From assembly GCA_035535975.1 (NCBI GenBank), contig DATLPC010000098.1, positions 16,859 through 80,858 of the forward strand: 64,000 bases of DNA. Reading direction: 5' to 3'. The notes under the pieces are model-generated. The model had not been told where the DNA came from and made no database searches. It saw only the letters and a program-made list of their open reading frames with translations. Positions 2,865 through 49,204 of this stretch are shown here, piece after piece. Position 1 is the first letter of the stretch; the number at the start of each line of letters is the position of its first letter. The DNA is from Gemmatimonadaceae bacterium (GTDB lineage: Bacteria > Gemmatimonadota > Gemmatimonadetes > Gemmatimonadales > Gemmatimonadaceae). A program made the position numbers and the translations under genes.

Positions 2865-3697
2865 GCGGGAGGGGAAGCCACGCGCTGACGCCGTACGTCG
2901 CGGTCGTCCGCGCGCGCTTCGGCGTGCTGTTGCAGTATCGCGCGGCGGCCATTGCGGGCTTTGTGACGCAATGCTGGTGGGGCGGGATCAAGGTCATGGT
3001 GCTGACGGCGTTCTTTGCCGCGAGCGCCGGCGCGCCGATGACTCTTCCGCAGGCGATCGACTATGTGTGGCTCGGCCAAGCGTTGTTCACGATGCTTCCC
3101 TGGTCGGGTGACCCGGATGTCGCGCGAATGGTTCGGACCGGCGACGTCGCTTATGAGCGCCTGCGCCCTCTCGACACTTATGCGTTCTGGTACTCGCGGG
3201 CCGTTGCGCGGCGAACGGCGAATCCTGCGTTGCGGGCACTTCCGATGCTGCTCACGGCCGGAGTTCTTCTTCGCGTGGTCGGCTGGTCGGCGTATGCATT
3301 GCGCGCGCCGGCGGGCGTCGCGGCGTCGCTACTCTTTGTTGCTTCCATCGCACTCGTCATCGCGCTCTCGGCGGCCGTCTCGGCGCTGATAGACGCGCTG
3401 ACCGTCGCGACGTTGTCGGACCGTGGCGTCACGGTGCTCGTCTCGCCGCTCGTCATCGTGCTCTCGGGGAGCCTGGTGCCGTTGCCGCTTTTCCCCGATT
3501 GGCTGCAGCCGATTCTTCGGAATCAGCCATTCGCCGGATTGATGGACACGCCCTTTCGCATCTACACCGGAAACCTCGCCGCCGGCGGCGCGGTATTCGC
3601 GCTGGCCCGCCAGGCAATCTGGGTGGTCGTCCTGGTGCTCTTGGGGCGGGTCGTCATGGCTCGCGTGATGTCGCGTCTGCAGACGCAAGGTGGTTGA
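2861..3697 (+). CDS. ABC-2 family transporter permease
   Basis: 278-aa polytopic hydrophobic protein, translationally coupled (ATGA) to the upstream ATPase. Confidence 0.75.
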   Translation: MSGRGSHALTPYVAVVRARFGVLLQYRAAAIAGFVTQCWWGGIKVMVLTAFFAASAGAPMTLPQAIDYVWLGQALFTMLPWSGDPDVARMVRTGDVAYERLRPLDTYAFWYSRAVARRTANPALRALPMLLTAGVLLRVVGWSAYALRAPAGVAASLLFVASIALVIALSAAVSALIDALTVATLSDRGVTVLVSPLVIVLSGSLVPLPLFPDWLQPILRNQPFAGLMDTPFRIYTGNLAAGGAVFALARQAIWVVVLVLLGRVVMARVMSRLQTQGG

Positions 3698-30826: not shown

Positions 30827-32215
30827 CTACTCCATCGCGCTACCGACGGCGATCCCCAAGCGACGCATGCGCCGGTAGAGATTGGGGCGGTCGGTCTTGA
30901 GGCGCCGCGCGGCCTCGGCGACGTTGCCGCCGGTGACCGACAGGGCGCGCGCGATGAGCGTGCGTTCGTAGTCGTCGAGCGTGTCGCTCAAGGAATGATC
31001 GAGGAGCGCCGGATCGGGAAGGGGTGTCGGCGGCGTGAGTCGCGCAGCCCGCTCGAGGGGAAGGACGGCCGCGACGTCGTTGTGCGTTACTGTGCGTCCG
31101 GCGTGCAGTATAGCCAAACGTTCCACGATGTTCGCCAGCTCGCGGATGTTTCCGGGCCAGGTGTATCTCGTGAGCGCCGCCACCGCTTCCTCGGACCACG
31201 ACGGCATCGCCTGGCCGGTGCGCATCCGGTGCAGCGCCGAAAAATGCCGAACGAGCGCCGGGATGTCGGTCGGGCGCTCGCGCAGCGGCGGGATCGGAAT
31301 CGGGATCACATTCAGGCGGAAGAGCAGATCGTCACGAAACGCCCCTTCCGCCGACGCGCGGGCGAGATCCTTGTTCGTCGCGGAGACGATCCTCACGTCC
31401 ACCCGAATCGGCTTCCCGCCGCCGACGCGCTCTATTTCTCGAGCTTCGATCGCGCGCAGCAGCTTGGCCTGCGCTTCGGCGCCGAGATCACCCACCTCGT
31501 CGAGGAAGAGCGTCCCCCGATGCGCGAGCTCGAACCGTCCGATCCGACGATCGGTCGCGCCGGTGAACGCGCCGCGCTCGTGGCCGAACATCTCGCTCTC
31601 CACGAGATCGCGCGGGATCGCCGCGCAATTCACCCGCACGAACGGTCGATCGCGCCGCGGACTCCCGCCGTGAATCGCGATCGCGACGAGCTCCTTTCCG
31701 GTTCCGGATTCCCCCGTGATCAGCACTCGCGAGTCCGTCGGTGCAATTCGCGCGATCAGCGCGCGCACCTGTTGCATCCCCGGACTGTCCCCAATCATCT
31801 CGCCGCTCAAACCGAGGTCGGCACGGAGGACTTTCGCCTCGCGACGCGCTTGCCGGAGCTCGAGCGCCGACGACAGCGCGAGCAGCACCCCTTCGGGGCT
31901 GAGCGGCTTTTCCAGAAAGTTGAACGCACCGAGCTTCGTCGCCTTGACGGCGTCACTCAGTCCGGCGCGGCCGCTCATCATGATCACGGGCACCTCCGGC
32001 AGCGACTCGCGCAGTCGCGCCAGCGTCGCCATGCCGTCCAAGTCGCCGGGGATCATCAAATCGAGCAGAAGCGCGTCCGGCTCGGCTTCGAGCGCGCGCG
32101 CGATTCCTGCCGCGCCGTCCTGCGCGTCGCGCACTTCGTATCCTTCGCCGGCCAGCAACGCGCCGACCATGCGCCGGATATTCGGCTCGTCGTCGATGAT
32201 GAGAACGCTCGGCAT
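30827..32215 (-). CDS. sigma-54-dependent response regulator (NtrC/NtrX family)
   Basis: Receiver domain VLIIDDEPNIR...LLLDLMIPG. AAA+ domain with GESGTGKEL and ERGAFTGA (GAFTGA loop). C-terminal Fis-type HTH GGNVAEAARRLKTDRPNLYRRMRRLGI. Confidence 0.9.
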   Translation of the reverse strand: MPSVLIIDDEPNIRRMVGALLAGEGYEVRDAQDGAAGIARALEAEPDALLLDLMIPGDLDGMATLARLRESLPEVPVIMMSGRAGLSDAVKATKLGAFNFLEKPLSPEGVLLALSSALELRQARREAKVLRADLGLSGEMIGDSPGMQQVRALIARIAPTDSRVLITGESGTGKELVAIAIHGGSPRRDRPFVRVNCAAIPRDLVESEMFGHERGAFTGATDRRIGRFELAHRGTLFLDEVGDLGAEAQAKLLRAIEAREIERVGGGKPIRVDVRIVSATNKDLARASAEGAFRDDLLFRLNVIPIPIPPLRERPTDIPALVRHFSALHRMRTGQAMPSWSEEAVAALTRYTWPGNIRELANIVERLAILHAGRTVTHNDVAAVLPLERAARLTPPTPLPDPALLDHSLSDTLDDYERTLIARALSVTGGNVAEAARRLKTDRPNLYRRMRRLGIAVGSAME

Positions 32216-32586: not shown

Positions 32587-32871
32587 TCAGGATGGCGGCT
32601 TCGATAACCCGGGAGCGGCGGCGGTGTTCCGCTCAGCGAGCAGCTTGGTCGTGAAGCGCTGTCCCTCCGAGATCCGTTCGACCTCGATCGCGATGGAATC
32701 GAGCGCTTGCTCCATCCGCTCCAGGCGCGCGCCGACGTCCGGAGGCAGCACCGGCTGGCGTGGCTCTCGCTCGATCCGCCGCGCGTAGGCCTTGGCGATC
32801 GGAATCCCGATCGCCGTCACGCCGGTCATGATGAACAGGACGATCGGCACCATCAACGGACTAATTCCCAT
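32587..32871 (-). CDS. small single-pass membrane protein, paralog 1 (PspB-like organisation)
   Basis: 94 aa from ATG 32871, with GGAG 6 nt upstream. TM segment ISPLMVPIVLFIMTGVTAIGIPIA, then ARLERMEQALDSIAIEVERISEGQRFTTKLLAER. Overlaps the kinase stop by 11 nt. Confidence 0.55.
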   Translation of the reverse strand: MGISPLMVPIVLFIMTGVTAIGIPIAKAYARRIEREPRQPVLPPDVGARLERMEQALDSIAIEVERISEGQRFTTKLLAERNTAAAPGLSKPPS

Positions 32872-34168
32872 CGGTCGCTCCATTTCCGTTCCGGCTGCCA
32901 TTCACCGGCAACACGAATCGAACCTCCGTGCCGCGGCCCGGAGTGCTCTCCGCCGTGACGGTTCCGTCGTGCGCCAACACCGTTTGTCTGGCGATCGCGA
33001 GACCAAGCCCCGTCCCGCCAGGCTTCGACGTCATGTATGGATCCCAGATGCGCAACAGCCTCTCCGGCGCGATGCCGCAGCCGGTGTCACGCACCGCGAT
33101 CTCGACGGCGTCGCGATCGGCGATCGGTGCGCGACGCACGCGTACGTCGATGCGGCCTTCACCGTCGCCGCACTGACGGCAGGCGTCCACCGCGTTCAAC
33201 ATCACGTTCGATAGTGCGCGTGCGAGTGCGTCGTGGTGGCCGTCGATCATCGGCACGGCATCGTCGATCTCGACGAGCGATTCCATGCTCGGCGGAATCG
33301 TCGCGCGCGCCGTATAGCGGGCAAGCTCGCCGACGTCGACCGGCGCGCGCGGGCCTTCGGGCAGGCGCCCGAATTGCGCGAAGCTTCGCGCCATCTCCTC
33401 GAGGCGATGGGATTCGATGCCCAACACCTCCACCGTTTCCGCCAGCTCCGGCGGCGCGTCACGCCGAAGTCGATCCACCGCGAAGCGGATCGGGGTGAGC
33501 GGGTTTTTCAATTCGTGCGCAAATTGCCGGGCGCTCTCGCGGAGCGCGCTGGCGCGTTCCGCCTCGAGCTCGCGCGCGCGCGCCGTTTCGAGCTCGCCGG
33601 CCATGTCGCGCATGCGTCGTCGAAGGACCTCGAACTCCGGTGCGCCGCGCCGGGGCGGCGTCACGGGAAGCGCCTCTCGTCGGCCAATCCGCTCCGTCCA
33701 CCCGACCAGCTCTTGCAGCGGCCGGCTCAAATTCCTGCTCAAGTGACCGGCAACTCGCGACGCGACGACTCCGATGATCAGCACCGCCGCCAGCGTCGAC
33801 AAAGCGAGGACCTTCGCGCCCTGTCGCAACACGAAATCGGCTTGCCGTGAGTTCACCAGGCTGCGGCGAAGCGTTTGCTCGTGCGCTTCCACGGCAGTCC
33901 GCTGACTTGGTGTCAGCGGCGCCGAACGCACGGCCATGACGGCGCGCTCGCCGGTGAATGCCACGCTGTCCCAAGCCGCGGTGCCGGTGACGAGCGGAAG
34001 CACGAACGATCCTGTAGCGTTCCAGGCAATGGAGATCAGAATCGACGGAATGAGCGCGAAGGCCAGCAGGATGAACAGGAGGCGGCCGCGAAACCCGACA
34101 CGCTTCACAAAGGCTCTCCTCCTCCCCCCATTACGCGATGGGCGGAACACCGGTTTCGGGTCAAACAT
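32861..34168 (-). CDS. sensor histidine kinase (NtrY/NtrB-like; 2 TM + HAMP + HisKA + HATPase_c)
   Basis: H-box FAHELKNPLTPI, N-box NVMLNAVDA, G-boxes RDTGCGI and GGTGLGLAI. Start set at Met13 (34168) because the track start would lie 20 nt from the divergent yjbQ-like start. Confidence 0.85.
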   Translation of the reverse strand: MFDPKPVFRPSRNGGRRRAFVKRVGFRGRLLFILLAFALIPSILISIAWNATGSFVLPLVTGTAAWDSVAFTGERAVMAVRSAPLTPSQRTAVEAHEQTLRRSLVNSRQADFVLRQGAKVLALSTLAAVLIIGVVASRVAGHLSRNLSRPLQELVGWTERIGRREALPVTPPRRGAPEFEVLRRRMRDMAGELETARARELEAERASALRESARQFAHELKNPLTPIRFAVDRLRRDAPPELAETVEVLGIESHRLEEMARSFAQFGRLPEGPRAPVDVGELARYTARATIPPSMESLVEIDDAVPMIDGHHDALARALSNVMLNAVDACRQCGDGEGRIDVRVRRAPIADRDAVEIAVRDTGCGIAPERLLRIWDPYMTSKPGGTGLGLAIARQTVLAHDGTVTAESTPGRGTEVRFVLPVNGSRNGNGATDGN

Positions 34169-34224
34169 ACGCTGCGCCGCGGGCACCAACCACCAGGACG
34201 GCAAGGGACGGGGGAAGCGACGAC

Positions 34225-40893: not shown

Positions 40894-41087
40894 GCGCGCC
40901 GCTCCAATGTCGATTGTCGAAAGTGATCGTTGACGCCGCACGAAACGTCGCACGCCACGAGTGTTGATGGAAGCCACGAACACGGCCGCGTCTATTGCGT
41001 GCGATAAAAACATTTCTATATTCGCTTTCAAGCACCCGAGTCAACGCGTGTTTGCGTGTTGTCGCACGGAACGCACGAGGGTACTGC

Positions 41088-42722
41088 GTGGGTCAGTCTC
41101 GACGCGAATTCATCAAGTCGACAAGTGCCGCCCTGGGCGTGGCGGGAATCGCCCCACTTTCCGGCGGTCGCATCGCGACCGACGCGCTGTTCCCACCGCA
41201 AGCCTCTTCTGAACACCCGATCGCGCCCGAGCCGAGCATCACCGAGCTCGCCGCGGTCGCGCTGGACGCCGCGAAGAGCGCCGGCGCCGAATACGCCGAC
41301 GTCCGCTTCGTGCGCAATCGCAATCAGAGCGTGTCGACGCGCGAACAGCGTGTGTCCGGCGTGTCCGACAACGAGACGTACGGCTTCGGGGTGCGCGCGC
41401 TGGTCGGCGGTTGCTGGGGGTTCTCGGCGAGTCGCGAGCTGACGAAGGACGAAGTCGCGCGCGTCGCCAAGCAGGCCGCCGCGCAGGCGCGTGCCAATCG
41501 GTCGGCGCTCGTCCGACCCGTGCAGCTGGCGCCGGCGCCGGTCGTCGCCAACGGAACGTGGAAGAGCCCCATCGAGACGGATCCGTTCAATGTTCCGATC
41601 GAAGAAAAAGTCGCGCTGCTGCTCGCCGCGAACCAGGCGGCGCTCGGCGTGAAGGGCGCGCGCTTCGTGAGCTCCAACATGTTCTTCCTGCGCGAGGAGA
41701 AAACCTTCGCGTCGACCGAAGGCTCCAACACCTTCCAGGTCATTTATCGCACCCAGCCGTCGATGACCGTGACGGCGGTCGGCAGCGGCGATTTCGCGAC
41801 GCGTGAATCCGTCGACATCGCGCCGCGCGGCGTTGGGTACGAGCACGTGCGCGACGCGAAGTTGCTCGAGATGGCGCCGAAGTGGGCGAGCGAGGCTGTC
41901 GAGAAGCTCTCCGCCAAATCCGTCGACGTCGGACGGTACGATCTCGTGCTCCATCCGTCGCACCTCTGGCTCACGATTCACGAGTCCGTCGCCCATCCCA
42001 CCGAGCTCGATCGCGCGATGGGATACGAAGCGAATTACGCGGGCACGAGCTTCGTCGCGCCGCCCGAGAAAGTGCTCGGCGCGCTCAAGTACGGATCGGA
42101 GCTCATGAACATCCGCGGTGACCGGACGCAGCCCGGCTCCTTGTCCGCGTGCGGTTGGGATGATGAAGGCGTAAAACCGGAAGAGTTCGACATCATCAAG
42201 AAGGGCGTGTTCGTCGACTATCAGACGACCCGCGAGCAAGCGTTGTGGCTCGATTGGTACTACAAGAAGCTAGGCAAGCCGACGCGGTCTCACGGGTGTT
42301 CGTACGCGCAGACATGGTCTGCGGTGCAATTCCAGCGCATGCCCAACGTCTCGCTTCTCCCCGGAGCACGAGATCTTGGTTGGGATGATCTGATCGCCGC
42401 CACCGATCGCGGGATCGCCATCATCGGCGACGGCTCGTTCTCGATCGACCAGCAGCGCTACAACGCGCAGTTCGGCGGCCAGGTCTTCTACGAGATCAGG
42501 GGCGGGAAGATCACCGGCATGCTCAAGGACGTCGCCTACCAGATGAAGACGCCGGAATTCTGGGCCAGCCTCGACATGGTCGGCGGTCCCAAGAGCTACT
42601 TCTTGGGCGGCGCGTTCGGTGATGCAAAGGGACAGCCGGTTCAGGTGAACGCGATCAGCCACGGCGCGCCGGTGACGCGCTTCCGGAACGTGAACGTCAT
42701 CAACACGGGCCGGACGGCATGA
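41088..42722 (+). CDS. tldD: TldD-family metalloprotease with twin-arginine (Tat) signal
   Basis: GTG at 41088 after GAGGG. The N-terminus GQSRREFIKSTSAALGVAGIAPL is a Tat motif. HESVAH is the HExxxH of TldD. Confidence 0.8.
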   Translation: MGQSRREFIKSTSAALGVAGIAPLSGGRIATDALFPPQASSEHPIAPEPSITELAAVALDAAKSAGAEYADVRFVRNRNQSVSTREQRVSGVSDNETYGFGVRALVGGCWGFSASRELTKDEVARVAKQAAAQARANRSALVRPVQLAPAPVVANGTWKSPIETDPFNVPIEEKVALLLAANQAALGVKGARFVSSNMFFLREEKTFASTEGSNTFQVIYRTQPSMTVTAVGSGDFATRESVDIAPRGVGYEHVRDAKLLEMAPKWASEAVEKLSAKSVDVGRYDLVLHPSHLWLTIHESVAHPTELDRAMGYEANYAGTSFVAPPEKVLGALKYGSELMNIRGDRTQPGSLSACGWDDEGVKPEEFDIIKKGVFVDYQTTREQALWLDWYYKKLGKPTRSHGCSYAQTWSAVQFQRMPNVSLLPGARDLGWDDLIAATDRGIAIIGDGSFSIDQQRYNAQFGGQVFYEIRGGKITGMLKDVAYQMKTPEFWASLDMVGGPKSYFLGGAFGDAKGQPVQVNAISHGAPVTRFRNVNVINTGRTA

Positions 42723-44089
42723 CGATTCGCTCCCTGCTCACGACGGCACGCTACCTGTCGCGCGAGGAGTGCGAAGCGATCACCAAGAAAGCACTGACGT
42801 TCTCGCATGCCGACGAGGCCCGGGTTCTCGTCAGCAGCACGAACATCAGCAACACGCGCTTCGCGGTGAACCAGATCTCGACCGGCGGCGATGCATTCGA
42901 TTCGGTCGTCACCGTGATCAGCAAGTTCGGAAAGCGGAGCGGCTCGGCGGCCACCAACCAGCTCGACGACGCCGGCCTGCGCGCCGCGGTCGAGATGTCG
43001 GAGCGTGTCGCCAAGTTGAGTCCCGAAGATCCGGAAGGGATGCCCGAGCTCGAGCCGCAGACCTATCGACCGGGCGTGAATTGGAGCGACGCGACCGCTT
43101 CGCTCGATCCCGCGGCGCGCGCCGACGCCGTCAAGCGAATCACCGAGCCGGCGAAAGCCGCGGGCCTCGTGTCCACCGGCTTCATGGAAGCGATCACGAG
43201 CGCCCAGGCGATCGCCAACAGCAAGGGCCTCTTCGCCTATAATCGCTCGACCGCGTCGGTGCTGACGACGACCGTGCGGACGTCCGATGGCACCGGCTCC
43301 GGTTGGGCCGGGGCGACGCATCACGACTGGACCAAGATCGATCCCTCGACGCTCGGTGCGCGGGCCACGGACAAGGCGCGCAGATCCGTCAATGCCGTCG
43401 CGGTCGAGCCAGGCCGATACACCGTGGTGTTCGAACCCACCGCCGCCGGCAATCTCGTGCAGTTCATCGGCCGCGCGTTGAGCGCGCGTGCCGCCGACGA
43501 AGGCCGCTCATTCTTTTCTGCATCGGGTGGAAAGAACAAGATCGGACAGAAAGTCGTCGACGAACGAGTGACGATCGTGTCCGATCCGTTCGATCCGAAC
43601 ATCGCCGGCGCGCCATTCAGCGGCGACGGTTTGCCCACGAAGCCTGTCGTGTGGATCGAGAACGGAGTACTGAAGAATCTCGACTACGACCGGTATTGGG
43701 CGCAGAAGCAACAGCGCGCGCCGACCGGCGCCGGTGGCTCGATCGGTATGACGGGCGGCACGTCGACGATGGACGATTTGATTCGCTCGACGGAACGCGG
43801 CCTCCTCGTCACGCGCTTCTGGTATTTGCGTCCCGTCGATCAGCGAACGATTCTCTACACCGGCCTCACTCGCGATGGTACGTTTCTCATCGAGAACGGC
43901 AAGGTCACGAAGCCGGTGAAGAACATGCGCTTCAACGATTCGCCAATCTTCATGCTCAACAACCTCGAAGCGATGGGCGCGCCGGTGCGCGTCAGCGCGA
44001 GTGAGGGTGGCGAGCCGGGTCAGGCGATCGCCGTTCCACCGATCAAGGTGCGAGATTTCAGCTTCACGAGCTTGAGTGATGCCGTATGA
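42719..44089 (+). CDS. pmbA: PmbA/TldE-family protein (partner of TldD)
   Basis: 456 aa of the TldD/PmbA fold without HExxxH. ATGA overlap with tldD. Confidence 0.8.
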   Translation: MTIRSLLTTARYLSREECEAITKKALTFSHADEARVLVSSTNISNTRFAVNQISTGGDAFDSVVTVISKFGKRSGSAATNQLDDAGLRAAVEMSERVAKLSPEDPEGMPELEPQTYRPGVNWSDATASLDPAARADAVKRITEPAKAAGLVSTGFMEAITSAQAIANSKGLFAYNRSTASVLTTTVRTSDGTGSGWAGATHHDWTKIDPSTLGARATDKARRSVNAVAVEPGRYTVVFEPTAAGNLVQFIGRALSARAADEGRSFFSASGGKNKIGQKVVDERVTIVSDPFDPNIAGAPFSGDGLPTKPVVWIENGVLKNLDYDRYWAQKQQRAPTGAGGSIGMTGGTSTMDDLIRSTERGLLVTRFWYLRPVDQRTILYTGLTRDGTFLIENGKVTKPVKNMRFNDSPIFMLNNLEAMGAPVRVSASEGGEPGQAIAVPPIKVRDFSFTSLSDAV

Positions 44090-44242
44090 TTGAGCAGCGC
44101 CTGGGACTTCACGCGACTCCGCGGAGTCACGTGTAGCGGCGACCGACTGGAGGGGACGAGAATCCTCTCATGCCGGCCGTCGTCTCGCCGATCCACCGGG
44201 GGATCGGCCGAGAGCAAGAAACTCCATACTGGAGAGATGACC

Positions 44243-44335
44243 ATGGCTGCACGTAAAGGCAAAAAGGCCGCGAAGAAGGGCGGACGCAAGGCTGCGAAGA
44301 AGGGTGGAAGAAAGGCAGCGAAGAAGCGTCGCTAG
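44243..44335 (+). CDS. 30-aa highly basic KAAKK-repeat peptide (hypothetical)
   Basis: MAARKGKKAAKKGGRKAAKKGGRKAAKKRR has 16 of 30 residues Lys/Arg. GGAGAG lies 7 nt upstream of ATG 44243. A strong terminator follows directly. Confidence 0.45.
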   Translation: MAARKGKKAAKKGGRKAAKKGGRKAAKKRR

Positions 44336-44357
44336 TAGGCGGCTGTTAGAGAACATG

Positions 44358-44389
44358 GAGGCCGGCGAGAGCCGGCCTTCTTGTTTTCT
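44358..44389 (+). terminator. rho-independent terminator
   Basis: aggccggc-gaga-gccggcct followed by tcttgttttctt. Confidence 0.65.
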
Positions 44390-44395
44390 TGCCGT

Positions 44396-44670
44396 ACTCC
44401 AAACGGCGGGACAACCCGAGAACGGCGGGAGAGCCCGAAACGGCGGGTGAGCCCGAAACGGCGGATGCGCCCGAAACGGCGGGTGAGCCCGAGACTGCGG
44501 GAACGCCCGAGAATGCGGCGCGTCACGAAAACGGCGATGACCAATCATCGCCGTTTCGGACTTATCCGCTGTTCCGGACTTATCCGCTTCTTGGGGCTTA
44601 ACCGGTTCTTCGGGCTGATCCGCCGTTTCGGGCTCACCCGCCGTTTCGGGCTTTCCCGCCTTTTCGGTCA
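44396..44670. repeat. about 275-bp imperfect palindrome built from about 15 tandem 18-bp units (CCCGAAACGGCGGGTGAG on the left arm, reverse complements on the right arm)
   Basis: CCCGA starts at 44414, 44433, 44451, 44469, 44487 and 44505, with a CACGA variant at 44523 (18-bp period). The centre is aaacggcgatgaccaatcatcgccgttt. The right arm carries gggctcacccgccgtttcggg units and ends 9 nt before the ATP-grasp stop. Confidence 0.85.
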
Positions 44671-44678
44671 GCGCTTTT

Positions 44679-45662
44679 TCAGCGCGAGTACCGCCCCGTC
44701 GCCAACTCCAAAACCCTCCCGACGAGCGCCTCGTACTCCAACCCGCCTTCCTTCGCCGCTCGCGCAAACTCTGCTTCCTTCTCGAGGTAGCAGTTCGGAT
44801 TCACCTCGATCACGTAGATCTCGCCCTCGTCGGACACGCGAAGATCGATTCGCCCGTAATCGCGGAGTCGTAGCGCGTTGAACGCCTCGACCGCCACACT
44901 CTGCATCTTCTCGCGAAGCTCGTCGCTCAGATTCGTGGGAAAGATCGACTTCGTGCCCGCGTACTCGGCGCCCGAGCCTTCACCGTCCTCGCCCCACTTC
45001 GCTTCCCAGCTCGCGATGCGCGGTCGGTCTTCGGGGAAGCCGGTGAAATCCAGTTCGATCACCGGAAGGGCTTGCGCGCTCTCGTTGCCAATGACGCCGA
45101 CATAAAACTCGCGTCCGTCGATGAACTCCTCGACGAGCACCGGCTGTTGATACTCGTCCTGGAGCTCGTGGATGCGCGACAGGAGATCCTTGATCTCGCG
45201 CACGACCGACGTCGCGGTAATGCCAAGCGATGCGTCTTCCTGCGGCGGCTTCACGATCACCGGGAAAGAGATGTCGCCCGCCCAGTCGACGGCGCCGCGG
45301 TAGACCGTCGCGAATTCCGGCGTTTTGATCCCGTGAAACCCGAGAATCTTCTTGGTCAGGCTCTTGTCGCCCGCGACGAGAAGGCCGGCCGGGCTCGATC
45401 CGGTGTATCGCAGATCGAGAAGGTTCAGCAGCGCCGCCACATTCGATTCCAACGCGCTCTTGCCGCCGAACGACTCGGCGAGGTTGAACACGATGTCGGG
45501 CGCGTCGTTCTTCAGCGATTGGACGAGCGGTTCGACGTCGGCGTCGACCGCCAAGCGGTTCGCTTCGTGTCCCAGCGATTCGAGCGCCGACGTCAGTTGT
45601 CCGAGCACCGGATCTTCCGGCGGCTCGAGGGCATCCGCGGTGTGCAGGAGGGTGATCTTCAT
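44679..45662 (-). CDS. ATP-grasp amidoligase of the D-Ala-D-Ala ligase family (not housekeeping Ddl-like)
   Basis: 327 aa from ATG 45662. FPVIVKPPQEDASLGI, LVEEFIDGREFYVGVIG and GRIDLRVSDEGEIYVIEVNPN match the ATP-grasp core. It lacks the GG.S.E..VS N-terminal motif of Ddl and is not in a mur/fts context. Confidence 0.85.
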   Translation of the reverse strand: MKITLLHTADALEPPEDPVLGQLTSALESLGHEANRLAVDADVEPLVQSLKNDAPDIVFNLAESFGGKSALESNVAALLNLLDLRYTGSSPAGLLVAGDKSLTKKILGFHGIKTPEFATVYRGAVDWAGDISFPVIVKPPQEDASLGITATSVVREIKDLLSRIHELQDEYQQPVLVEEFIDGREFYVGVIGNESAQALPVIELDFTGFPEDRPRIASWEAKWGEDGEGSGAEYAGTKSIFPTNLSDELREKMQSVAVEAFNALRLRDYGRIDLRVSDEGEIYVIEVNPNCYLEKEAEFARAAKEGGLEYEALVGRVLELATGRYSR

Positions 45663-46741
45663 TCGTCGTGCACGGACTCGGCGCTGCGTGATCTGCGCGA
45701 ACCGTGCGACGTGGAACCCAGGGTGCGGGTATATCGATAGTTCATGACGACCGCCGTTCCGAACGCAGTGAGCTCGATCAGCGTCGAAGCCTCGAATCCT
45801 CCCACGCGAAGCCCGAGATCGGCCGCGCGCTGACCGAGATGATCGATCAGCGAACGCACTACACTCGGCGCTTCGCCCGTCCAATAGGATATACGCGAAA
45901 CGATTTCACGATAGTGGCGATGAACAAACCACTGCCCCTGCTCGCCACCGGGTGCGTCGTGTGCCGCCATGAAGATCCGTCGCAGATCGGTGTCGAACTG
46001 ACGACGATCGGCGATCGGAACCGTTGCATCTTGATCCGCATAATGTTCGGCGATCGTGTACCGCATCGCCTCCACCGGCAGATCATCTTCGGTCGGTTCC
46101 GGGGCCTCGGGAACGACGCCCGCGATCTCGTGCATGACACCGTCGACGTAGTCGAGCTTCTGCAGCGCGGGCCAGCCGTCGTATTCGCGCTGCCAGCTCA
46201 GCCCCGGCGTCAGCCAGACCGCGAAGGTTTCGGCGAAGTCTTCGTCGGGATGCTTCTGCGCGTACCAGCCGAGGATGTGGCGCACGAAATTGCGCGAGAA
46301 CGGATCGGCGCGATACCGCTCGCGATACGGCCGAGAGAACGGTCCGAAGAGCGCGCGCCATTCGGGGCGTTCGTAAAGTTTGAAGGCGTAGTTGAGCGCG
46401 TGCCCGCATTCGTGGCGGAGGTAGCGCATCGCCTCCACGTCATCCTCGATGCCGCCCGACATCTCGGCTTCGATACGTTCGAGCCGCGAATCCACCAGAT
46501 AAAACGGCACTCCGATGAGCGGTGTCCCGTCAGGGCACCCCCATTGATCGCTCAGATACACGACGGGACGGAAGGCGATATCGCGCGCGGCAAGCTCGGC
46601 GTAGAGCTGTTCCGTCAAGCGCTCTACGCGAGAGCCTCGGATCGAGAGGCCCAGCTCCGAAATCCTGCGTCCGAGGAGAGCGGAGCGCTCTTCCTCCCAG
46701 GCGGTTGGGTCGTCCACACGGGACAAGGGGGCAAACGTCAT
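45659..46741 (-). CDS. putative zinc metallopeptidase (HExxH; Peptidase_Mx-like)
   Basis: 360 aa with LRHECGHALNY (HExxH) and the downstream acidic HPDEDFAETFAVWL. The stop overlaps the ATP-grasp start (ATGA). Confidence 0.7.
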   Translation of the reverse strand: MTFAPLSRVDDPTAWEEERSALLGRRISELGLSIRGSRVERLTEQLYAELAARDIAFRPVVYLSDQWGCPDGTPLIGVPFYLVDSRLERIEAEMSGGIEDDVEAMRYLRHECGHALNYAFKLYERPEWRALFGPFSRPYRERYRADPFSRNFVRHILGWYAQKHPDEDFAETFAVWLTPGLSWQREYDGWPALQKLDYVDGVMHEIAGVVPEAPEPTEDDLPVEAMRYTIAEHYADQDATVPIADRRQFDTDLRRIFMAAHDAPGGEQGQWFVHRHYREIVSRISYWTGEAPSVVRSLIDHLGQRAADLGLRVGGFEASTLIELTAFGTAVVMNYRYTRTLGSTSHGSRRSRSAESVHDE

Positions 46742-46768
46742 ACCGAGCTAAGGTACCAGAAAAGCGAC

Positions 46769-46796
46769 GGGCGAAGGAGAGGAAATTCCTTCGCCC
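46769..46796 (-). terminator. hairpin (10-bp perfect stem) with a short T-run between the small ORF and the peptidase gene; attenuator candidate
   Basis: Minus strand reads gggcgaagga-atttcctc-tccttcgccc followed by gtcgcttttctgg. Confidence 0.5.
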
Positions 46797-46823
46797 GATA
46801 AAGATTTCGCCGGCCGGAAGTGC

Positions 46824-46979
46824 CTAGGCGACCTTGCTCTCGAGTCCGTCCTCAGTGCCTTCCGGGGCAGGGCCCCAGACGTACTCGAAAACAGCTGGAG
46901 CCTCTTCGCCTTCAGGCCCGCAGGAAATCACGATGCCCATCGGCTCCGCGTCCAGCACAGGAGTCTGTTCTGCAATCAT
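46824..46979 (-). CDS. 51-aa strongly acidic hypothetical protein (possible substrate/precursor)
   Basis: MIAEQTPVLDAEPMGIVISCGPEGEEAPAVFEYVWGPAPEGTEDGLESKVA has 11 acidic and 1 basic residues. It is the internal Met of the 90-aa track ORF, whose N-terminal extension is Arg-rich and starts with TTG. G/C third-position bias is weaker than in neighbours and there is no clear SD. Confidence 0.35.
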   Translation of the reverse strand: MIAEQTPVLDAEPMGIVISCGPEGEEAPAVFEYVWGPAPEGTEDGLESKVA

Positions 46980-47100
46980 ATATAGGATGTGGGCGACCGA
47001 AGTGAGGGTTCTTACGGGCCCGGCGGCGAGAACGGTTCGCCGCTCGGGCCCGGTTGCGGTACGACGGGCGATCACAACCGTGACCGACCGGCGCAACCTT

Positions 47101-47117
47101 AAGCACCCTCGATGCCA
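47101..47117 (-). promoter_or_regulatory. candidate sigma-54 -24/-12 element
   Basis: Minus strand TGGCATCGAGGGTGCTT versus consensus TGGCACG-N4-TTGCW, with correct GG-N10-GC spacing. It lies about 120 nt upstream of the 51-codon ORF. The TTGCAAcacaTTGCAA repeat is about 45 nt further upstream. Confidence 0.2.
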
Positions 47118-47242
47118 AACTTGCCACGCTGTCTAAATCATTCCATTGCAATGTGTTGCAAGCATCGCTCCGCGGCTGGTCCGCTGGTTTGTGTCACGAC
47201 GACACAAGGCAATTCGACACGAAGCGTGAAAAACAGACACGC

Positions 47243-47380
47243 CCGGCAGAGAAGGCTCCGGCGGGAAACCTGAGGATGCGGAAAAGCCCGATGAAGCGGC
47301 AAGGCCCGAAACGGCGGGTTTCGGGCTCTTCCGACTCTTCGGGCTCTTCCGACTCTTCGGGCTCTTCCGGTTTTTCTCCG
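47243..47380. repeat. second member of the 18-bp-unit palindromic repeat family
   Basis: Central hairpin gcccgaaac-ggcgg-gtttcgggc at 47304-47326. The right arm has tcttccgactcttcgggc twice, exactly, plus a degenerate third unit. The left arm has degenerate complements. It shares the GCCCGAAACGGCGGGT core with 44396-44670. Confidence 0.8.
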
Positions 47381-47382
47381 TG

Positions 47383-48177
47383 TCAGGCCACGGACTTTCG
47401 CGCAAAGAAAGTCTTGGCCCGCCCGTCGGTCTTTTCGACCGTTACCTCCCAGCCCTTGTATCGGCTGCGGAGCTCCTCGAGCGATACGGCGCCGTTGGAC
47501 TTCCCCGAGGCGGTGATCGTTTGGACGAGGTGAACGCCACCGTCCATGGTCGCGCTCTGAAGGACGCGAATGACTCGGGCGCGCTCGGTCTGGGTCAGCC
47601 CTTCGAGCGCCGCCGGGTTGACGATGACCGCGTTCAGCGGCAGCTCCGACGACGGTGTCCAGGACGACAGGTCGCCGACCTCCGCATGGACGCGGCCCGC
47701 CAAGCCGGCTCCGATCGCCGCTTGCATCACCCGGTCGAGTGCGTCCATCTCGGGCGCCAGCGTGGTGACGTCGCAGCCGTTCGCGGCGAAGTAGAGCGCG
47801 GACACTTCGTCCAGCGCGCCCGCAACCAAAACGCGCCCTTCGGTCGACGGCTGAAGAGCGCGGACGAGAACGTCGTCGGGCCGAAGGCCCCAGTGCTCGG
47901 GTCGACGAAGCTCGTCGATGAGTTTGAGTCGCTTCCGGCGCCAGGTGTCATACGCCGGGAGACGGAGGCGCTTGAAGATGATCCGGTCCACCTCATCACA
48001 GAGCACGAGCTCCGTGAGAGCGAACTGCGGCGCGGCGGAAAGCGACGACACCGCTTCGTCGCCGATCGTGAGGAGCACGCTCCTCGAAACCGACTCCTTG
48101 TAGTTCTCGATTTCCTGTTCGACGAACCGCTCGTACTCGTATTTCAGCGAGCGCGTCAGCCGCTGCGTAGGGGCCAT
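47383..48177 (-). CDS. TehB-like methyltransferase-fold protein with a degenerate SAM-binding loop and an about 100-aa unknown N-terminal domain
   Basis: 264 aa. VLVAGALDEVSALYFAANGCDVTTL aligns with the TehB-type [26 protein letters not shown], but the GxGxG loop is replaced by VAGALDE. Confidence 0.55.
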   Translation of the reverse strand: MAPTQRLTRSLKYEYERFVEQEIENYKESVSRSVLLTIGDEAVSSLSAAPQFALTELVLCDEVDRIIFKRLRLPAYDTWRRKRLKLIDELRRPEHWGLRPDDVLVRALQPSTEGRVLVAGALDEVSALYFAANGCDVTTLAPEMDALDRVMQAAIGAGLAGRVHAEVGDLSSWTPSSELPLNAVIVNPAALEGLTQTERARVIRVLQSATMDGGVHLVQTITASGKSNGAVSLEELRSRYKGWEVTVEKTDGRAKTFFARKSVA

Positions 48178-48244
48178 GCCGTCACAGGTACGAGGAAAGG
48201 ACGTTCGGCAGTAAAGTAGAAGTCATGGTCGCATTCGCAAGTGC

Positions 48245-49204
48245 TCATGCGGGTTCTACATGGACCGTGACTTCCGACGTGCCGAACTCACGCGCGATCG
48301 CGGCCTCGACTTCGTCGGCCAGTCGGTGCGCTTCGTCGACCGATATGATCCCCGACACCGCGATCGTCACCTCCGCGAAGAGCTGCCCCGATGCCGTGGA
48401 TCGCGATCGCACCTTGCGAACGTCTCGAATCTCCGGCACGGCCAGCACGATTCGTCTCAGCTCCTGGGCCGCGATCGCCCGCTCGTCGACGAGGATGGGG
48501 ATCGATTCCCGGAGAATGCGGTAACCGCTCCAGGCGATGATCATCGCGACCGCGATCGCCAGCACCGCGTCGAGATTCGGGTAACCGAGGCGCGACAGCA
48601 CGAGTGACGCGAGCGCGAGCAGCGTCACGAGAATGTCACTCCCGGTATGGGCCGCGTCCGCCATGAGAAACGCACTGCCGAGCTCCCGTCCGCGCCGCCG
48701 CTCGTAGATCACCACGAACCCGTTGACGACGAGGGCGAAGACGATTGCCGCGAGATCGAGTGCGCCAATCGAGACGGGAGTCCGCCGCGCCATCAGCGAC
48801 GACACGACTTCCCGAAGCAGCTCGAAGCAGGAGATCGACAAGAAGCCGACGATGCCGAGCGTGCCGAGCGTTTCGAATTTGTCGTGTCCGTACGGGTGAT
48901 CTTCGTCCGGCGCTCGCCCCGCGACGCGGACGAGCATGACGCCGATCACGTTGTTGAACATGTCGAGGCTCGACTCGAGCGCCGCGCCCAGCACGGCGAG
49001 GGCGCCGGTGCGGATCCCGACGATGACCTTCACGAACGCCACCAATGCGTTCAAGAAGAGAACGACAACCAAAACCCGCCGCACGGCCGGCGATCGGGCG
49101 ACGTCGCCGCGGACCCGGGCAGCATCCGTCCCGCGAGGTGGCGAAATTGAAGTGCGGCTCACCACAGCAAGTTGCCGGTTCCGGCGACTCGCGGTCAACC
49201 ACAC
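48245..49204 (-). CDS. cation diffusion facilitator (CDF) family metal transporter
   Basis: 319 aa with six TM segments. SLDMFNN, HPYGHDKFE and AAHTGSD motifs, and a cytoplasmic C-terminal domain ending EVTVHVEP. Confidence 0.85.
   Translation of the reverse strand: MWLTASRRNRQLAVVSRTSISPPRGTDAARVRGDVARSPAVRRVLVVVLFLNALVAFVKVIVGIRTGALAVLGAALESSLDMFNNVIGVMLVRVAGRAPDEDHPYGHDKFETLGTLGIVGFLSISCFELLREVVSSLMARRTPVSIGALDLAAIVFALVVNGFVVIYERRRGRELGSAFLMADAAHTGSDILVTLLALASLVLSRLGYPNLDAVLAIAVAMIIAWSGYRILRESIPILVDERAIAAQELRRIVLAVPEIRDVRKVRSRSTASGQLFAEVTIAVSGIISVDEAHRLADEVEAAIAREFGTSEVTVHVEPA

What the first reader, a model, noticed from the sequence alone, without database searches (positions are those of the whole stretch)
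44679..47117. ATP-grasp ligase translationally coupled to an HExxH peptidase, preceded by a small acidic ORF and an attenuator hairpin: candidate peptide-ligation or RiPP-like cassette
Three co-directional minus-strand genes form a compact unit.
(1) A 51-codon ORF encodes a very acidic product (11 Asp/Glu, 1 Lys): MIAEQTPVLDAEPMGIVISCGPEGEEAPAVFEYVWGPAPEGTEDGLESKVA.
(2) A perfect 10-bp-stem hairpin with a short T-run sits at 46769-46796.
(3) A 360-aa protein carries HECGH plus DEDFAETFA.
(4) A 327-aa D-Ala-D-Ala-ligase-family ATP-grasp enzyme follows, and its ATG overlaps the peptidase stop (ATGA).

The ligase lacks the N-terminal GG.S.E..VS motif of cell-wall Ddl and is not in a mur/fts context. 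A small gene followed by a partial terminator and then processing enzymes is the classical layout for a precursor or substrate made in excess over its modifying enzymes.

ATP-grasp ligases are established peptide-bond, isopeptide and ester-forming enzymes (RimK, cyanophycin synthetase, graspetide/microviridin maturases). Pairing with a dedicated peptidase suggests a ligate-and-trim or tag-and-remove cycle. I know of no experimentally defined function for this specific pairing.

A weak sigma-54-like -24/-12 element (TGGCAT-N5-GTGCT, 47101-47117) lies upstream. The cassette is bracketed by the two 18-bp-unit palindromic repeats. The upstream TehB-like protein with a degenerate SAM loop may belong to it.
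Basis: partly seen in the sequence, partly recalled or inferred. Interest (0 to 1): 0.7.

Follow-up and report, generated by a model that had tools for sequence, protein, structure and literature searches.

The report
Sigma-54 small protein beside ligase-peptidase pair
In this soil bacterium (Gemmatimonadaceae), a real, previously undescribed 51-residue protein gene sits next to a widespread but uncharacterised ATP-grasp ligase and zinc-peptidase gene pair. Each has its own sigma-54-type promoter, and comparison with other genomes shows they are two separable modules rather than one proven peptide-modification cassette.

Summary
The 51-codon ORF is a genuine gene: median dN/dS is 0.25, a profile finds 214 clusters, and it has no Pfam or NCBIfam model. 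It lies upstream of the peptidase in every Gemmatimonadaceae locus with enough sequence.

The architecture differs from the proposal. The small gene has its own conserved sigma-54 promoter (P1), upstream palindromes, a covarying leader hairpin (loop NCCGTTC) and a conserved terminator. The "attenuator" hairpin is that terminator. A second conserved sigma-54-type promoter (P2) follows, and a GTG start lies 13-15 nt after its -12 element. The peptidase and ligase therefore form their own, apparently leaderless, unit.

A search seeded on the small ORF finds the TehB-like gene upstream in 66 of 67 loci. The peptidase-ligase pair is missing in 17 of 72. Conversely, the pair occurs alone in other Gemmatimonadaceae, Longimicrobiales, Acidobacteriota and Myxococcota.

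The ligase keeps the Ddl-type ATP, Mg and catalytic residues but lacks the D-Ala-binding residues. The peptidase is a zincin with no solved relative.

A substrate or scaffold role for the small protein, which has a flexible tail ending in Ala, remains possible but unproven.

The parts
47383..48177 (-). TehB-like protein (264 aa). It has a conserved N-terminal domain of about 95 aa of unknown kind, then a TehB-type Rossmann domain with a degenerate SAM loop. It is the most constant neighbour of the small ORF.
   Evidence: Weak NCBIfam TehB hit. A profile matches TehB structures 2i6g/2xva at E=2e-8 over residues 91-238, with AGxxxE in place of GxGxG. The N-terminal domain is the best-conserved part. 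The gene lies upstream of the small ORF in 66 of 67 loci found by the small ORF.
47269..47369 (.). Inverted array of 18-bp units (TTCGGGCTCTTCCGACTC and its complement) between the TehB-like gene and promoter P1.
   Evidence: Not present in the 74%-identical relative L001, so probably a strain-specific intergenic repeat.
47192..47204 (-). Palindrome TGTCGTCGTGACA, a candidate binding site for a sigma-54 activator protein.
   Evidence: TGT[CT]-N4-9-[GA]ACA palindromes (mostly N5 or N7) occur in 40 of 60 unique loci within 200 nt upstream of P1. Centres lie near -81 and -114. The rate is 1.0 per 200 nt against a background of 0.05.
47102..47117 (-). P1, the sigma-54-type -24/-12 promoter of the small ORF (TGGCAT-CGAGG-GTGCT).
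   Evidence: Score of at least 12 of 15 in 60 of 66 unique loci, at a fixed distance from the ORF. It is the only strict match in the 64-kb window. An NtrC-type activator with GAFTGA is encoded at 30827-32215.
47023..47043 (-). Leader RNA hairpin GCGGCGA-ACCGTTC-TCGCCGC, with a conserved 7-nt loop and a covarying stem.
   Evidence: Of 102 hairpins with an NCCGTT[CA] loop in 1.2 Mb of loci, 86 lie in this leader, and the window has just one. Pairing is 87%. There are 111 double-change cells against 50 in shuffles, with 0 of 500 shuffles reaching the observed value. No Rfam match.
46824..46979 (-). Small protein gene (51 aa). Family consensus: M-K-K..EPxGI[IV]ISxGxxxExxPxFxAY[VI]WGPxPE......[KR][AV]A-COOH.
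   Evidence: Alignments A1-A3. 214 clusters at E<=0.001. Median dN/dS 0.245, and codon-position entropies 0.64/0.49/1.47. No Pfam or NCBIfam hit. AlphaFold2 gives pLDDT 77-86 for residues 11-40 and low confidence for both tails.
46768..46797 (-). Intrinsic terminator of the small gene (11-bp stem, 8-nt loop, T-rich tail).
   Evidence: A G+C-rich hairpin in this gap is found in 64 of 67 loci, usually with a 9-21-bp stem starting 3-60 nt after the stop. Its sequence is not conserved, and most copies have a T-rich tail.
46731..46744 (-). P2, a second sigma-54-type promoter (GGTATG-ACGT-TTGC) directly upstream of the peptidase. It overlaps the annotated ATG at 46741.
   Evidence: 68 of 79 unique loci match GG[CT]N[CT]N-N4-[CTA]TGCN; the commonest forms are GGTACG (35), GGTATG (20) and TTGCC (54). 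The N4 spacer varies. In 57 of the 68, the first in-frame start is a GTG 13-15 nt after the GC. Similar matches occur in loci without the small ORF (L069, L070, L072, L074).
45659..46741 (-). Zincin metallopeptidase (Peptidase_Mx-like). The ORF as listed is 360 aa; the probable true start is GTG at 46717 (MDDPTAWEEER...).
   Evidence: PF15887. H110, E111, H114 and G158-E171 (GWYAQKHPDEDFAE) are invariant across Gemmatimonadota and Terriglobales. AlphaFold2 pLDDT 81.8. No PDB sequence hit and no significant fold hit; the weak top hits are all anthrax lethal factor.
44679..45662 (-). Ddl-family ATP-grasp ligase (327 aa), translationally coupled to the peptidase by an ATGA overlap.
   Evidence: Pfam. 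NCBIfam Ddl models score 141 bits or less against cut-offs of 243 or more. Alignment to Ddl structure 4zqi keeps K144, K215, R255, D257, E270 and N272, but S150 becomes A, Y216 becomes W, G276 becomes Y and S281/L282 become A/E. The N-terminal GGxSxE region does not align. The pair is adjacent in all 80 or so loci with room.
44401..44667 (.). Large inverted array of 18-bp units (arms of about 98 nt, 77% complementary) between the ligase stop and the convergent Lys-rich gene.

Best explanation
The region holds two adjacent but separable sigma-54-type transcription units.

**Unit 1: the small protein gene.** It consists of activator-type palindromes, promoter P1, a leader of about 120 nt with a conserved hairpin, the 51-aa ORF and an intrinsic terminator. 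It encodes a cytosolic protein of a new family. Its constant genomic partner is the upstream TehB-like pseudo-methyltransferase.

**Unit 2: the enzyme pair.** Promoter P2 drives an apparently leaderless two-gene message for a zincin peptidase and a Ddl-family ATP-grasp ligase, which are translationally coupled.

Unit 2 is an autonomous module found in several phyla. The ligase most likely activates a carboxylate as an acyl-phosphate and joins it to an amine. The peptidase most likely hydrolyses that bond or a competing bond of the same class. Its active-site region is nearly identical between phyla. The primary substrate is therefore probably something common to these bacteria, not the lineage-specific small protein.

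In Gemmatimonadaceae the two units have stayed neighbours and probably respond to the same kind of sigma-54 signal.

**Shown:** the anatomy, the conservation, the separability and the loss of the D-Ala-binding residues.

**Inferred:** that the promoters are active, that the message is leaderless, the chemistry and the substrate class.
For: - **Small ORF is real:**
- **P1 is conserved and has upstream palindromes:**
- **Sigma-54 activator in the window:**
- **Leader hairpin covaries:**
- **Terminator is conserved in structure, not sequence:**
- **P2 is conserved with a variable spacer and a GTG at +13 to +15:**
- **Sigma-54-like matches are rare:** the 64 kb holds only four loose matches. Two are P1 and P2; the other two lie under long ORFs on either strand.
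- **Separability:** the pair is absent in 17 of 72 loci found by the small ORF, in at least four C-terminal sequence types. There the ORF is followed by the Lys-rich gene and pmbA/tldD.
- **Pair without the small ORF or the TehB-like gene:** L069-L083 and Terriglobales L165-L167, with unrelated neighbours.
- **Peptidase catalytic region is invariant across two phyla:**
- **Ligase residues:**. NCBIfam cut-offs are not met.
Against: - The block TehB-like, small ORF, peptidase, ligase is more persistent than its flanks. The cation-efflux (CDF) gene is adjacent in 26 of 51 loci and pmbA is nearby in 13 of 47. The block is intact in every locus found by the peptidase. That pattern usually signals functional coupling.
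- Two rare sigma-54-type promoters in tandem suggest one regulon.
- The small protein has a flexible tail with a near-invariant C-terminal Ala. This is what a carboxylate-activating ligase could use.
- I could not check whether genomes lacking the pair at this site carry it elsewhere.
- No transcript data exist. P2 could be some other conserved DNA or RNA element.
Confidence: 0.5

Rival explanations
1. Dedicated scaffold or substrate cassette. The small protein's flexible tail enters the ATP-grasp active site. Its C-terminal Ala carboxylate is phosphorylated and extended by an amino acid or amine. The zincin later removes the added group, giving a ligate-and-trim or build-and-release cycle. 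The TehB-like protein acts as a binding or modifying partner.
For: - The small ORF lies directly upstream of the pair in all 64 or so Gemmatimonadaceae loci found by the peptidase.
- The block outlasts the flanking synteny.
- Both units carry sigma-54-type promoters.
- The C-terminus is almost always Ala, preceded by A or V and usually K or R.
- The tail is predicted to be flexible.
- The ligase lacks the Ddl residues that hold the free amino group of D-Ala1 (the E15 region does not align; S150 becomes A; Y216 becomes W). This fits a peptide C-terminus as acyl donor.
- There is precedent: PEARL enzymes extend the C-terminus of roughly 50-aa scaffold peptides through an acyl-phosphate, and a protease releases the product (10.1101/2024.03.12.584671, PMC9016710).
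Against: - The pair is conserved without any member of this small-protein family in other phyla and in some Gemmatimonadaceae.
- The small ORF keeps its promoter, its selection pattern and its C-terminal AA where the pair is absent.
- The peptidase active-site region is nearly identical across phyla. That argues for a shared substrate.
- The enzymes have their own promoter, so there is no attenuation logic.
Confidence: 0.27
2. The small protein is a regulator or binding partner rather than a substrate. It might partner the TehB-like pseudo-enzyme or modulate the sigma-54 response, with its own mRNA controlled through the leader hairpin. Its adjacency to the enzyme pair reflects a shared regulon only.
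For: - Its tightest association is with the TehB-like gene, in 66 of 67 loci.
- The methyltransferase loop is degenerate, which suggests a non-catalytic binding role.
- A dedicated leader hairpin with a sequence-specific loop suggests post-transcriptional control.
Against: - No known regulatory domain is detected.
- The TehB-like gene and the small ORF are not co-transcribed from P1.
- The association could be inherited synteny.
Confidence: 0.15
3. RiPP or graspetide-type natural product. The small ORF is a precursor peptide cross-linked by the ATP-grasp, trimmed by the peptidase and exported.
For: The layout, a small ORF with a terminator followed by enzymes, superficially resembles RiPP clusters.
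Against: - The best ligase matches are all Ddl models, not graspetide maturases.
- The conserved residues of the small protein are G, I, P, Y and W, with one Ser. There is no Thr/Ser-Asp/Glu core motif.
- The centre is conserved and the ends vary, the opposite of a leader/core precursor.
- The locus is a core chromosomal locus with vertical inheritance across a family.
- There is no transporter or immunity gene, and no signal sequence.
- The enzymes occur without the peptide.
Confidence: 0.04
4. The ligase is an ordinary cell-wall D-Ala-D-Ala ligase and the neighbours are coincidental.
For: The best Pfam, NCBIfam and PDB matches are Ddl.
Against: - It scores 141 bits against cut-offs of 243 or more.
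- The D-Ala1 triad and the D-Ala2 site are not conserved.
- There is no mur/fts context.
- It is strictly coupled to a zincin peptidase across phyla.
Confidence: 0.03

Closest known systems
D-Ala-D-Ala ligase (Ddl) and the VanA/VanX pairing of a Ddl-family ligase with a zinc dipeptidase
   Same: The closest sequence and structure family is the same (Dala_Dala_lig_C; PDB 4zqi, E=9e-20). The ATP, Mg and catalytic residues are kept. As in van clusters, a Ddl-family ligase is encoded next to a zinc hydrolase.
   Different: NCBIfam Ddl and Van cut-offs are not met. The E15/S150/Y216 triad and S281/L282 are replaced. The peptidase is an HExxH zincin of about 350 aa; from my own knowledge it is not a VanX-type enzyme. 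There is no cell-wall gene context.
Pearlin pathways (TglA scaffold peptide, PEARL ligase TglB, releasing protease)
   Same: A ribosomal peptide of about 50 aa would have its C-terminal carboxylate activated as an acyl-phosphate and extended, and a protease would then release the product (10.1101/2024.03.12.584671, PMC9016710). The logic matches the scaffold reading of this locus.
   Different: No LanB-like PEARL enzyme and no tRNA dependence is implied here. The ligase is a true ATP-grasp. The small protein and the enzymes are genomically separable. Nothing has been shown experimentally.
LysW amino-group carrier protein with LysX (ATP-grasp) and LysK (metallopeptidase); RimK acting on ribosomal protein S6
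   Same: A small acidic protein or protein tail is used as acyl donor by an ATP-grasp ligase, and a metallopeptidase releases the product (from my own knowledge).
   Different: LysW has a Cys4 zinc ribbon and ends in EDWGE. LysX and RimK belong to the RimK family, and LysK is an M20 peptidase. Here the protein ends in Ala, has no Cys4, the ligase is Ddl-like and the peptidase is a zincin.
Graspetides (microviridin-type RiPPs)
   Same: A small ORF lies next to an ATP-grasp enzyme, sometimes with peptidases (PMC8939145).
   Different: The ATP-grasp subfamily differs. There is no Thr/Ser-Asp/Glu core motif and no leader/core pattern. This is a core chromosomal locus, and the enzymes occur without the peptide.
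Peptidase_Mx (PF15887), and weakly the anthrax lethal factor catalytic fold
   Same: HExxH plus a downstream acidic motif (DEDFAETF). The protein passes the PF15887 gathering score. The only recurrent fold hits are lethal factor.
   Different: Only 76 of 236 profile positions match. The Foldseek hits are not significant (best E=1.9). The C-terminal helical half has no relative. No member of the family has a defined substrate that I could find.
Sigma-54 (RpoN) dependent promoters with upstream activator sites, such as nif and gln promoters
   Same: GG-N10-GC geometry. TGGCAY/TGCT for P1 and GGTAYG/TTGCC for P2. Tandem palindromes lie about 80-115 nt upstream of P1. An NtrC-type activator is encoded in the window.
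   Different: P2 lies only 13-15 nt from the start codon, implying a leaderless message, which is unusual for described sigma-54 promoters. No palindromes were seen upstream of P2 in loci where the pair stands alone. Neither promoter has been tested experimentally.

Membership tests
ATP-grasp superfamily, Ddl-like branch | Significant match to ATP-grasp or Dala_Dala_lig_C profiles, with retention of the ATP/Mg and catalytic residues (K144, K215, R255, D257, E270, N272 in DdlB numbering). | tested here: met
   PF07478 E=3.6e-30. The alignment to 4zqi shows these residues conserved. They are also conserved across 77 orthologues.
D-alanine--D-alanine ligase (functional Ddl) | Score above the curated NCBIfam cut-off. 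| tested here: not met
   Best score 140.8 bits against a cut-off of 243 (NF002378). All Ddl and Van models fall far below their cut-offs.
D-alanine--D-alanine ligase (functional Ddl) | D-Ala1 and D-Ala2 binding residues: the E15/S150/Y216 triad, G276 and S281/L282. The residue roles are from my own knowledge of DdlB. | tested here: not met
   The N-terminal GGxSxE region does not align. S150 becomes A, Y216 becomes W, G276 becomes Y, S281 becomes A and L282 becomes E.
D-alanine--D-alanine ligase (functional Ddl) | A mur/fts cell-wall gene neighbourhood (typical, not obligatory). | tested here: not met
   The neighbours are a cation-efflux (CDF) transporter, the TehB-like gene, tldD/pmbA and a Lys-rich protein gene.
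Peptidase_Mx (PF15887) / zincin metallopeptidase | Pfam gathering score, and an HExxH motif with a downstream third ligand. | tested here: met
   30.2 bits against a cut-off of 27, covering only profile positions 89-164. H110, E111, H114 and D166-E171 are invariant in 56 sequences from two phyla.
Peptidase_Mx (PF15887) / zincin metallopeptidase | Zincin fold confirmed against a solved structure. | tested here: inconclusive
   The model has pLDDT 81.8. No Foldseek hit reaches E<=0.001; the recurrent weak hits are anthrax lethal factor, with probability of 0.44 or less.
Graspetide (microviridin-type) RiPP cluster | Graspetide-type ATP-grasp maturase, and a precursor with a conserved leader and a Thr/Ser plus Asp/Glu core motif. 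| tested here: not met
   The 25 best NCBIfam matches shown are all Ddl/Van models. The invariant residues of the small protein are G, I, P, Y and W plus one Ser. The ends vary and the centre is conserved.
LysW-type amino-group carrier system | Carrier with a Cys4 zinc ribbon and a C-terminal Glu (EDWGE), a RimK-family ligase and an M20 peptidase (from my own knowledge). | tested here: not met
   The small protein has at most one Cys and ends in [AV]-A. The RimK Pfam hit is marginal (E=1.5e-4) next to Ddl. The peptidase is an HExxH zincin.
Pearlin (PEARL) pathway | A LanB-derived peptide aminoacyl-tRNA ligase next to the scaffold peptide. | tested here: not met
   No such gene lies in the locus. 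The resemblance is in the logic only.
Sigma-54-dependent promoter | GG and GC elements separated by 10 nt, conserved in position, with upstream activator sites and sigma-54 machinery in the genome. | tested here: met
   P1. P2. NtrC-type activator with GAFTGA. Promoter activity itself cannot be tested with these tools.
Intrinsic terminator | G+C-rich stem-loop followed by a T-rich tract just after a stop codon. | tested here: met
   Window hairpin. Structural but not sequence conservation in 64 of 67 loci. The T-run is short in the window and in some loci.
Known anti-phage defence systems | Match to PADLOC models. | tested here: not met
   No hit for any of the four proteins.

The most novel reading that the evidence does not exclude
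The roughly 50-aa protein is a ribosomally made scaffold or tag. Its free C-terminal Ala is extended by a Ddl-family ATP-grasp ligase and then trimmed by the dedicated zincin, all under sigma-54 control. This would be an ATP-grasp-based counterpart of pearlin or LysW carrier chemistry, or of Pup-like tagging, in Gemmatimonadota. The TehB-like pseudo-methyltransferase would be an accessory partner.
Probability: 0.2. Interest if true: 0.85.

Novelty: new variant of a known kind. Interest (0 to 1): 0.55.

Why it matters
**A large uncharacterised enzyme pair.** The peptidase-ligase pair is very common. Each of two searches returned thousands of homologues (7,476 and 8,000 scored hits), from Gemmatimonadota and Acidobacteriota. 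I found no experimental work on it. A Ddl-family ligase that has lost D-Ala specificity, and is always coupled to a zincin, implies an unknown amide-bond make-and-break cycle in abundant soil bacteria.

**A new small protein with defined regulation.** The small protein is a new family with an unusually complete regulatory anatomy: activator sites, a sigma-54 promoter, a covarying leader hairpin and a terminator. This gives concrete handles for study in a phylum with almost no genetics.

**Possible new chemistry.** If the small protein proves to be the ligase's substrate, it would extend scaffold-peptide chemistry to true ATP-grasp enzymes.

**Better annotation.** The peptidase start codon and promoter structure are probably wrong in automatic gene calls.

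Tried and rejected
- **Rfam:** a scan of 44000-48500 gave only repeat-driven sub-threshold hits.
- **Family libraries:** Pfam and NCBIfam found nothing for the small protein, even at E<=5 over 63 members. PADLOC found nothing.
- **Plasmids:** tblastn of the peptidase found no match.
- **Solved structures:** the PDB sequence search of the peptidase gave only noise. Foldseek gave no significant match.
- **Literature:** no paper mentions PF15887 or this pairing. The one "Peptidase_MX" hit refers to a Pfam clan in a toxin-antitoxin paper. The 2009 Iyer/Aravind amidoligase survey, which may mention such pairs, is not held.
- **Metagenome scan:** The narrower A3 worked.
- **Small ORFs elsewhere:** I looked for other small ORFs upstream of distant pairs and found none conserved. 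I also checked the long gaps between the small ORF and the peptidase and found only repeats.
- **Complex prediction:** I considered a fused ligase-linker-small-protein AlphaFold run but did not run it.
- **Other sigma-54-like matches:** those at 3235 and 3764 lie under long ORFs on either strand and are probably chance.
- **Paralogues:** none of the cassette genes has a second copy in the window.

Full report
**Observation**

- The 51-codon ORF lies at 46824-46979.
- A terminator-like hairpin lies at 46768-46797, with an 11-bp stem and the tail TCGCTTTTCT.
- A 360-aa ORF at 45659-46741 carries HECGH and HPDEDFAETFA.
- A 327-aa ATP-grasp gene at 44679-45662 has an ATG that overlaps the preceding stop as ATGA.

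Pfam assigns the ligase to Dala_Dala_lig_C (E=3.6e-30). It assigns the peptidase, just above threshold, to Peptidase_Mx PF15887 (30.2 bits against a cut-off of 27). The upstream 264-aa protein is TehB-like. A profile of its orthologues matches TehB structures at E=2e-8, with AGxxxE in place of the GxGxG SAM loop. The 18-bp-unit inverted arrays occur only at 44401-44667 and 47269-47369 within the 64 kb. Database hits name the organism as Gemmatimonadaceae.

**The small ORF is a real gene of a new family**

Close homologues are called as genes in public data. A profile search of 1.84 billion representative proteins finds 214 clusters at E<=0.001, nearly all 45-110 aa long.

The family consensus is M-K-K..EPxGI[IV]ISxGxxxExxPxFxAY[VI]WGPxPE......[KR][AV]A-COOH. 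Over 124 distinct sequences of the 29-codon core, median dN/dS is 0.245. Codon-position entropies are 0.64, 0.49 and 1.47.

No Pfam or NCBIfam model matches it. AlphaFold2 gives moderate confidence for residues 11-40 and low confidence for both tails. "Very acidic" describes the window's copy. Many relatives have a Lys-rich N-terminus.

**Regulatory anatomy of the small gene**

The weak sigma-54-like element is in fact a conserved -24/-12 promoter, which I call P1 (TGGCAY-N5-sTGCT). It scores at least 12 of 15 in 60 of 66 unique loci, at a fixed distance from the ORF. It is the only strict match in the whole window.

Palindromes matching TGT[CT]-N4-9-[GA]ACA, mostly with a 5- or 7-nt spacer, lie 80-115 nt upstream of P1 in 40 of 60 loci. 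That is twenty times the background rate. The window's copy is at 47192-47204. This is the layout expected for binding sites of a sigma-54 activator protein. The window also encodes an NtrC-type activator with the GAFTGA loop, and its kinase.

The transcript leader carries a hairpin with a conserved 7-nt loop, NCCGTTC, and a covarying stem.
- The two main stem forms are GCGGCGA/TCGCCGC and GTCCCCG/CGGGGAC.
- Of 102 such hairpins in 1.2 Mb of fetched loci, 86 sit in this leader. The window has exactly one, at 47023-47043.
- Pair counting gives 87% pairing. There are 111 double-change cells against 50 in shuffles, and no shuffle of 500 reaches the observed value.
- One caveat applies: the sequences were selected for having at least 5 pairs, so it is the compensatory changes that count, not the percentage paired.

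Rfam has no matching family.

A G+C-rich hairpin, usually with a 9-21-bp stem and a T-rich tail, follows the stop codon in 64 of 67 loci. Its sequence is unrelated from locus to locus.

**The peptidase and ligase are their own unit**

Directly after the terminator lies a second conserved bipartite element, which I call P2.
- Its commonest forms are GGTACG or GGTATG, then a variable N4 spacer, then TTGCC. This is GG-N10-GC geometry.
- A relaxed pattern (GG[CT]N[CT]N-N4-[CTA]TGCN) matches 68 of 79 unique loci.
- In 57 of those 68, the first in-frame start codon is a GTG 13-15 nt after the GC.
- In the window P2 is GGTATGACGTTTGC at 46744-46731. The annotated ATG at 46741 lies inside its -24 element.
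- The likely start is GTG at 46717, giving MDDPTAWEEER... This matches where orthologues begin and where conservation starts.

From memory, P2 resembles the Klebsiella nifH promoter CTGGTATG-N4-CTGCA. If P2 is a sigma-54 promoter, the message is essentially leaderless.

Similar matches accompany the pair in loci that lack the small ORF (L069, L070, L072, L074). The Terriglobales loci inspected (L165, L166) have a TTGACA-type sequence upstream instead. Read-through attenuation is therefore not needed to express the enzymes.

**Comparative genomics: two separable modules**

Among 80 genome loci found with the peptidase, the ligase is adjacent wherever there is room. A family HMM finds the small ORF directly upstream in every Gemmatimonadaceae locus from L001 to L068, and in L071, L073 and L076. 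It is absent from the more distant loci L069, L070, L072, L074, L075 and L077-L083. These come from Gemmatimonadaceae, Longimicrobiales, Myxococcota, Thermoanaerobaculia and Acidobacteriaceae. Their neighbours are unrelated to each other. Terriglobales pairs also stand alone.

The reverse search, seeded on the small ORF in metagenomes, gave 80 loci.
- The TehB-like gene is upstream in 66 of 67 loci with room.
- The peptidase is downstream in 55 and absent in 17 with room.
- In those 17, the small ORF is followed directly by a convergent Lys-rich protein gene and pmbA/tldD.
- The 17 include one close relative (L128; its TehB-like protein is 79% identical) and at least four C-terminal sequence types.
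- In these loci the ORF keeps P1 and its C-terminal AA or VA.

So the peptidase-ligase pair, with P2, is a two-gene insert between the small gene's terminator and the Lys-rich gene. The small ORF's constant partner is the TehB-like gene.

Against pure coincidence, the four-gene block outlasts its flanks. The cation-efflux (CDF) gene is adjacent in 26 of 51 loci, and pmbA lies within 3.5 kb in 13 of 47.

**What the enzymes look like**

The ligase aligns to Ddl structures (best hit 4zqi, E=9e-20). It keeps K144, K215, R255, D257, E270 and N272. It has Ala for S150, Trp for Y216, Tyr for G276 and Ala-Glu for S281-L282. The N-terminal GGxSxE segment does not align. All NCBIfam Ddl and Van models score far below their cut-offs. 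It is an active-looking carboxylate-amine ligase with a substrate other than D-Ala-D-Ala. Its family-specific motifs are RYTGSS, ASWxAKW and EVNPNCYL.

The peptidase has no sequence relative in the PDB. Its AlphaFold2 model has pLDDT 81.8, with a disordered but highly conserved loop at residues 140-162. Foldseek finds no significant match; the only recurrent weak hits are anthrax lethal factor. H110, E111, H114 and the stretch GWYAQKHPDEDFAETFAVWLTP are almost entirely invariant between Gemmatimonadota and Terriglobales. This near-identity across phyla argues that the pair's substrate is shared by these bacteria, not specific to one lineage.

**Interpretation**

I favour two neighbouring sigma-54-type units, with confidence about 0.5. 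One is the small-protein gene, partnered by the TehB-like gene. The other is an autonomous ligase-hydrolase module. That module activates a carboxylate as an acyl-phosphate, couples it to an amine and hydrolyses the same class of bond. The two units are probably co-regulated in Gemmatimonadaceae.

The scaffold or substrate model has confidence about 0.27. In it, the small protein's flexible tail with its near-invariant C-terminal Ala is extended and trimmed. The persistent adjacency, the twin promoters and the loss of the Ddl residues that hold a free alpha-amino group keep it alive. It also has precedent in PEARL chemistry on roughly 50-aa scaffolds (10.1101/2024.03.12.584671, PMC9016710). 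The separability data and the cross-phylum conservation of the peptidase weaken it.

A regulator or partner role for the small protein (0.15), a RiPP or graspetide product (0.04) and a housekeeping Ddl (0.03) are less likely, for the reasons given under the rivals.

**Novelty and verdict**

The component families are known: Ddl-like ATP-grasp, Peptidase_Mx and TehB-like. I found no experimental or computational description of this pairing, and the 2009 amidoligase survey that may mention such pairs is not held. The small-protein family, its leader hairpin and the tandem sigma-54 architecture are not in Pfam, NCBIfam or Rfam.

I rate it a new variant of a known kind, with interest 0.55. Its cassette interpretation is only partly supported.

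Noticed in passing
window 47023-47043 (minus strand); leaders of the small ORF in L001-L164: A conserved RNA hairpin with loop NCCGTTC and a covarying G+C-rich stem lies in the small gene's leader. It is duplicated in L027 and L071. A few terminator hairpins after the ORF carry the same loop (L050, L066, L135, L140). Rfam has no matching family.
   Followed up: yes
window 44189-44335 (plus strand); L128, L137, L142, L147, L153, L156, L162: A 30-aa Lys-rich ORF (MTMAARKGKKAAKKGGRKAAKKGGRKAAKKRR, 44243-44335) is preceded by the palindrome GCCGATCCACCGGGGGATCGGC. The same palindrome recurs upstream of this gene in distant relatives. It may be a conserved leader element of a histone-like or polycationic small protein.
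   Followed up: partly
window 44401-44667 and 47269-47369; gaps in L011 and L033: Inverted tandem arrays of 18-bp units flank the block from the small ORF to the ligase. They occur nowhere else in the 64 kb. Other genomes carry different short-unit palindromic arrays in the corresponding intergenic gaps. This suggests a class of strain-specific intergenic repeats in Gemmatimonadaceae.
   Followed up: partly
window 30827-32215 and 32861-34204 (minus strand): An NtrC-type sigma-54 activator (Response_reg, Sigma54_activat with GAFTGA, HTH_8) lies next to a HAMP/HisKA/HATPase sensor kinase. This shows the genome uses sigma-54. Whether it controls P1 or P2 is unknown.
   Followed up: partly
window 47192-47245 (minus strand): Palindromes and half-sites of the type GTGTC-N5/7-GACAC lie upstream of P1. 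They are conserved in position across loci and are candidate activator binding sites.
   Followed up: yes
window 46715-46741 (minus strand): The first ATG of the peptidase ORF lies inside the -24 element of P2. The conserved GTG at 46717 is the more likely start, so automatic gene calls for this family are probably 8 codons too long here.
   Followed up: yes
L165 5595-6000; L166 5472-6000: Terriglobales peptidase-ligase pairs share a conserved non-coding stretch upstream (GTGATCyGCCGTGACCTAyGAACC ... TGTTTArAAT). There is no small ORF and no sigma-54 motif. This may be a different regulatory element for the same pair.
   Followed up: no
window 40995-44089 (plus strand): The convergent tldD/pmbA-like metallopeptidase pair has a twin-arginine-type signal (RREFIKSTSAALGVAGIA) on the first protein, so it is probably exported. 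It is the ancestral downstream neighbour of the small ORF where the ligase pair is absent.
   Followed up: partly
window 46980-46990 (minus strand); starts of the small ORF in related loci: In the window's clade the small ORF start sits in an AT-rich context (CTATATATG) without a GGAGG-type ribosome-binding site. Another clade has GAGAG upstream.
   Followed up: no
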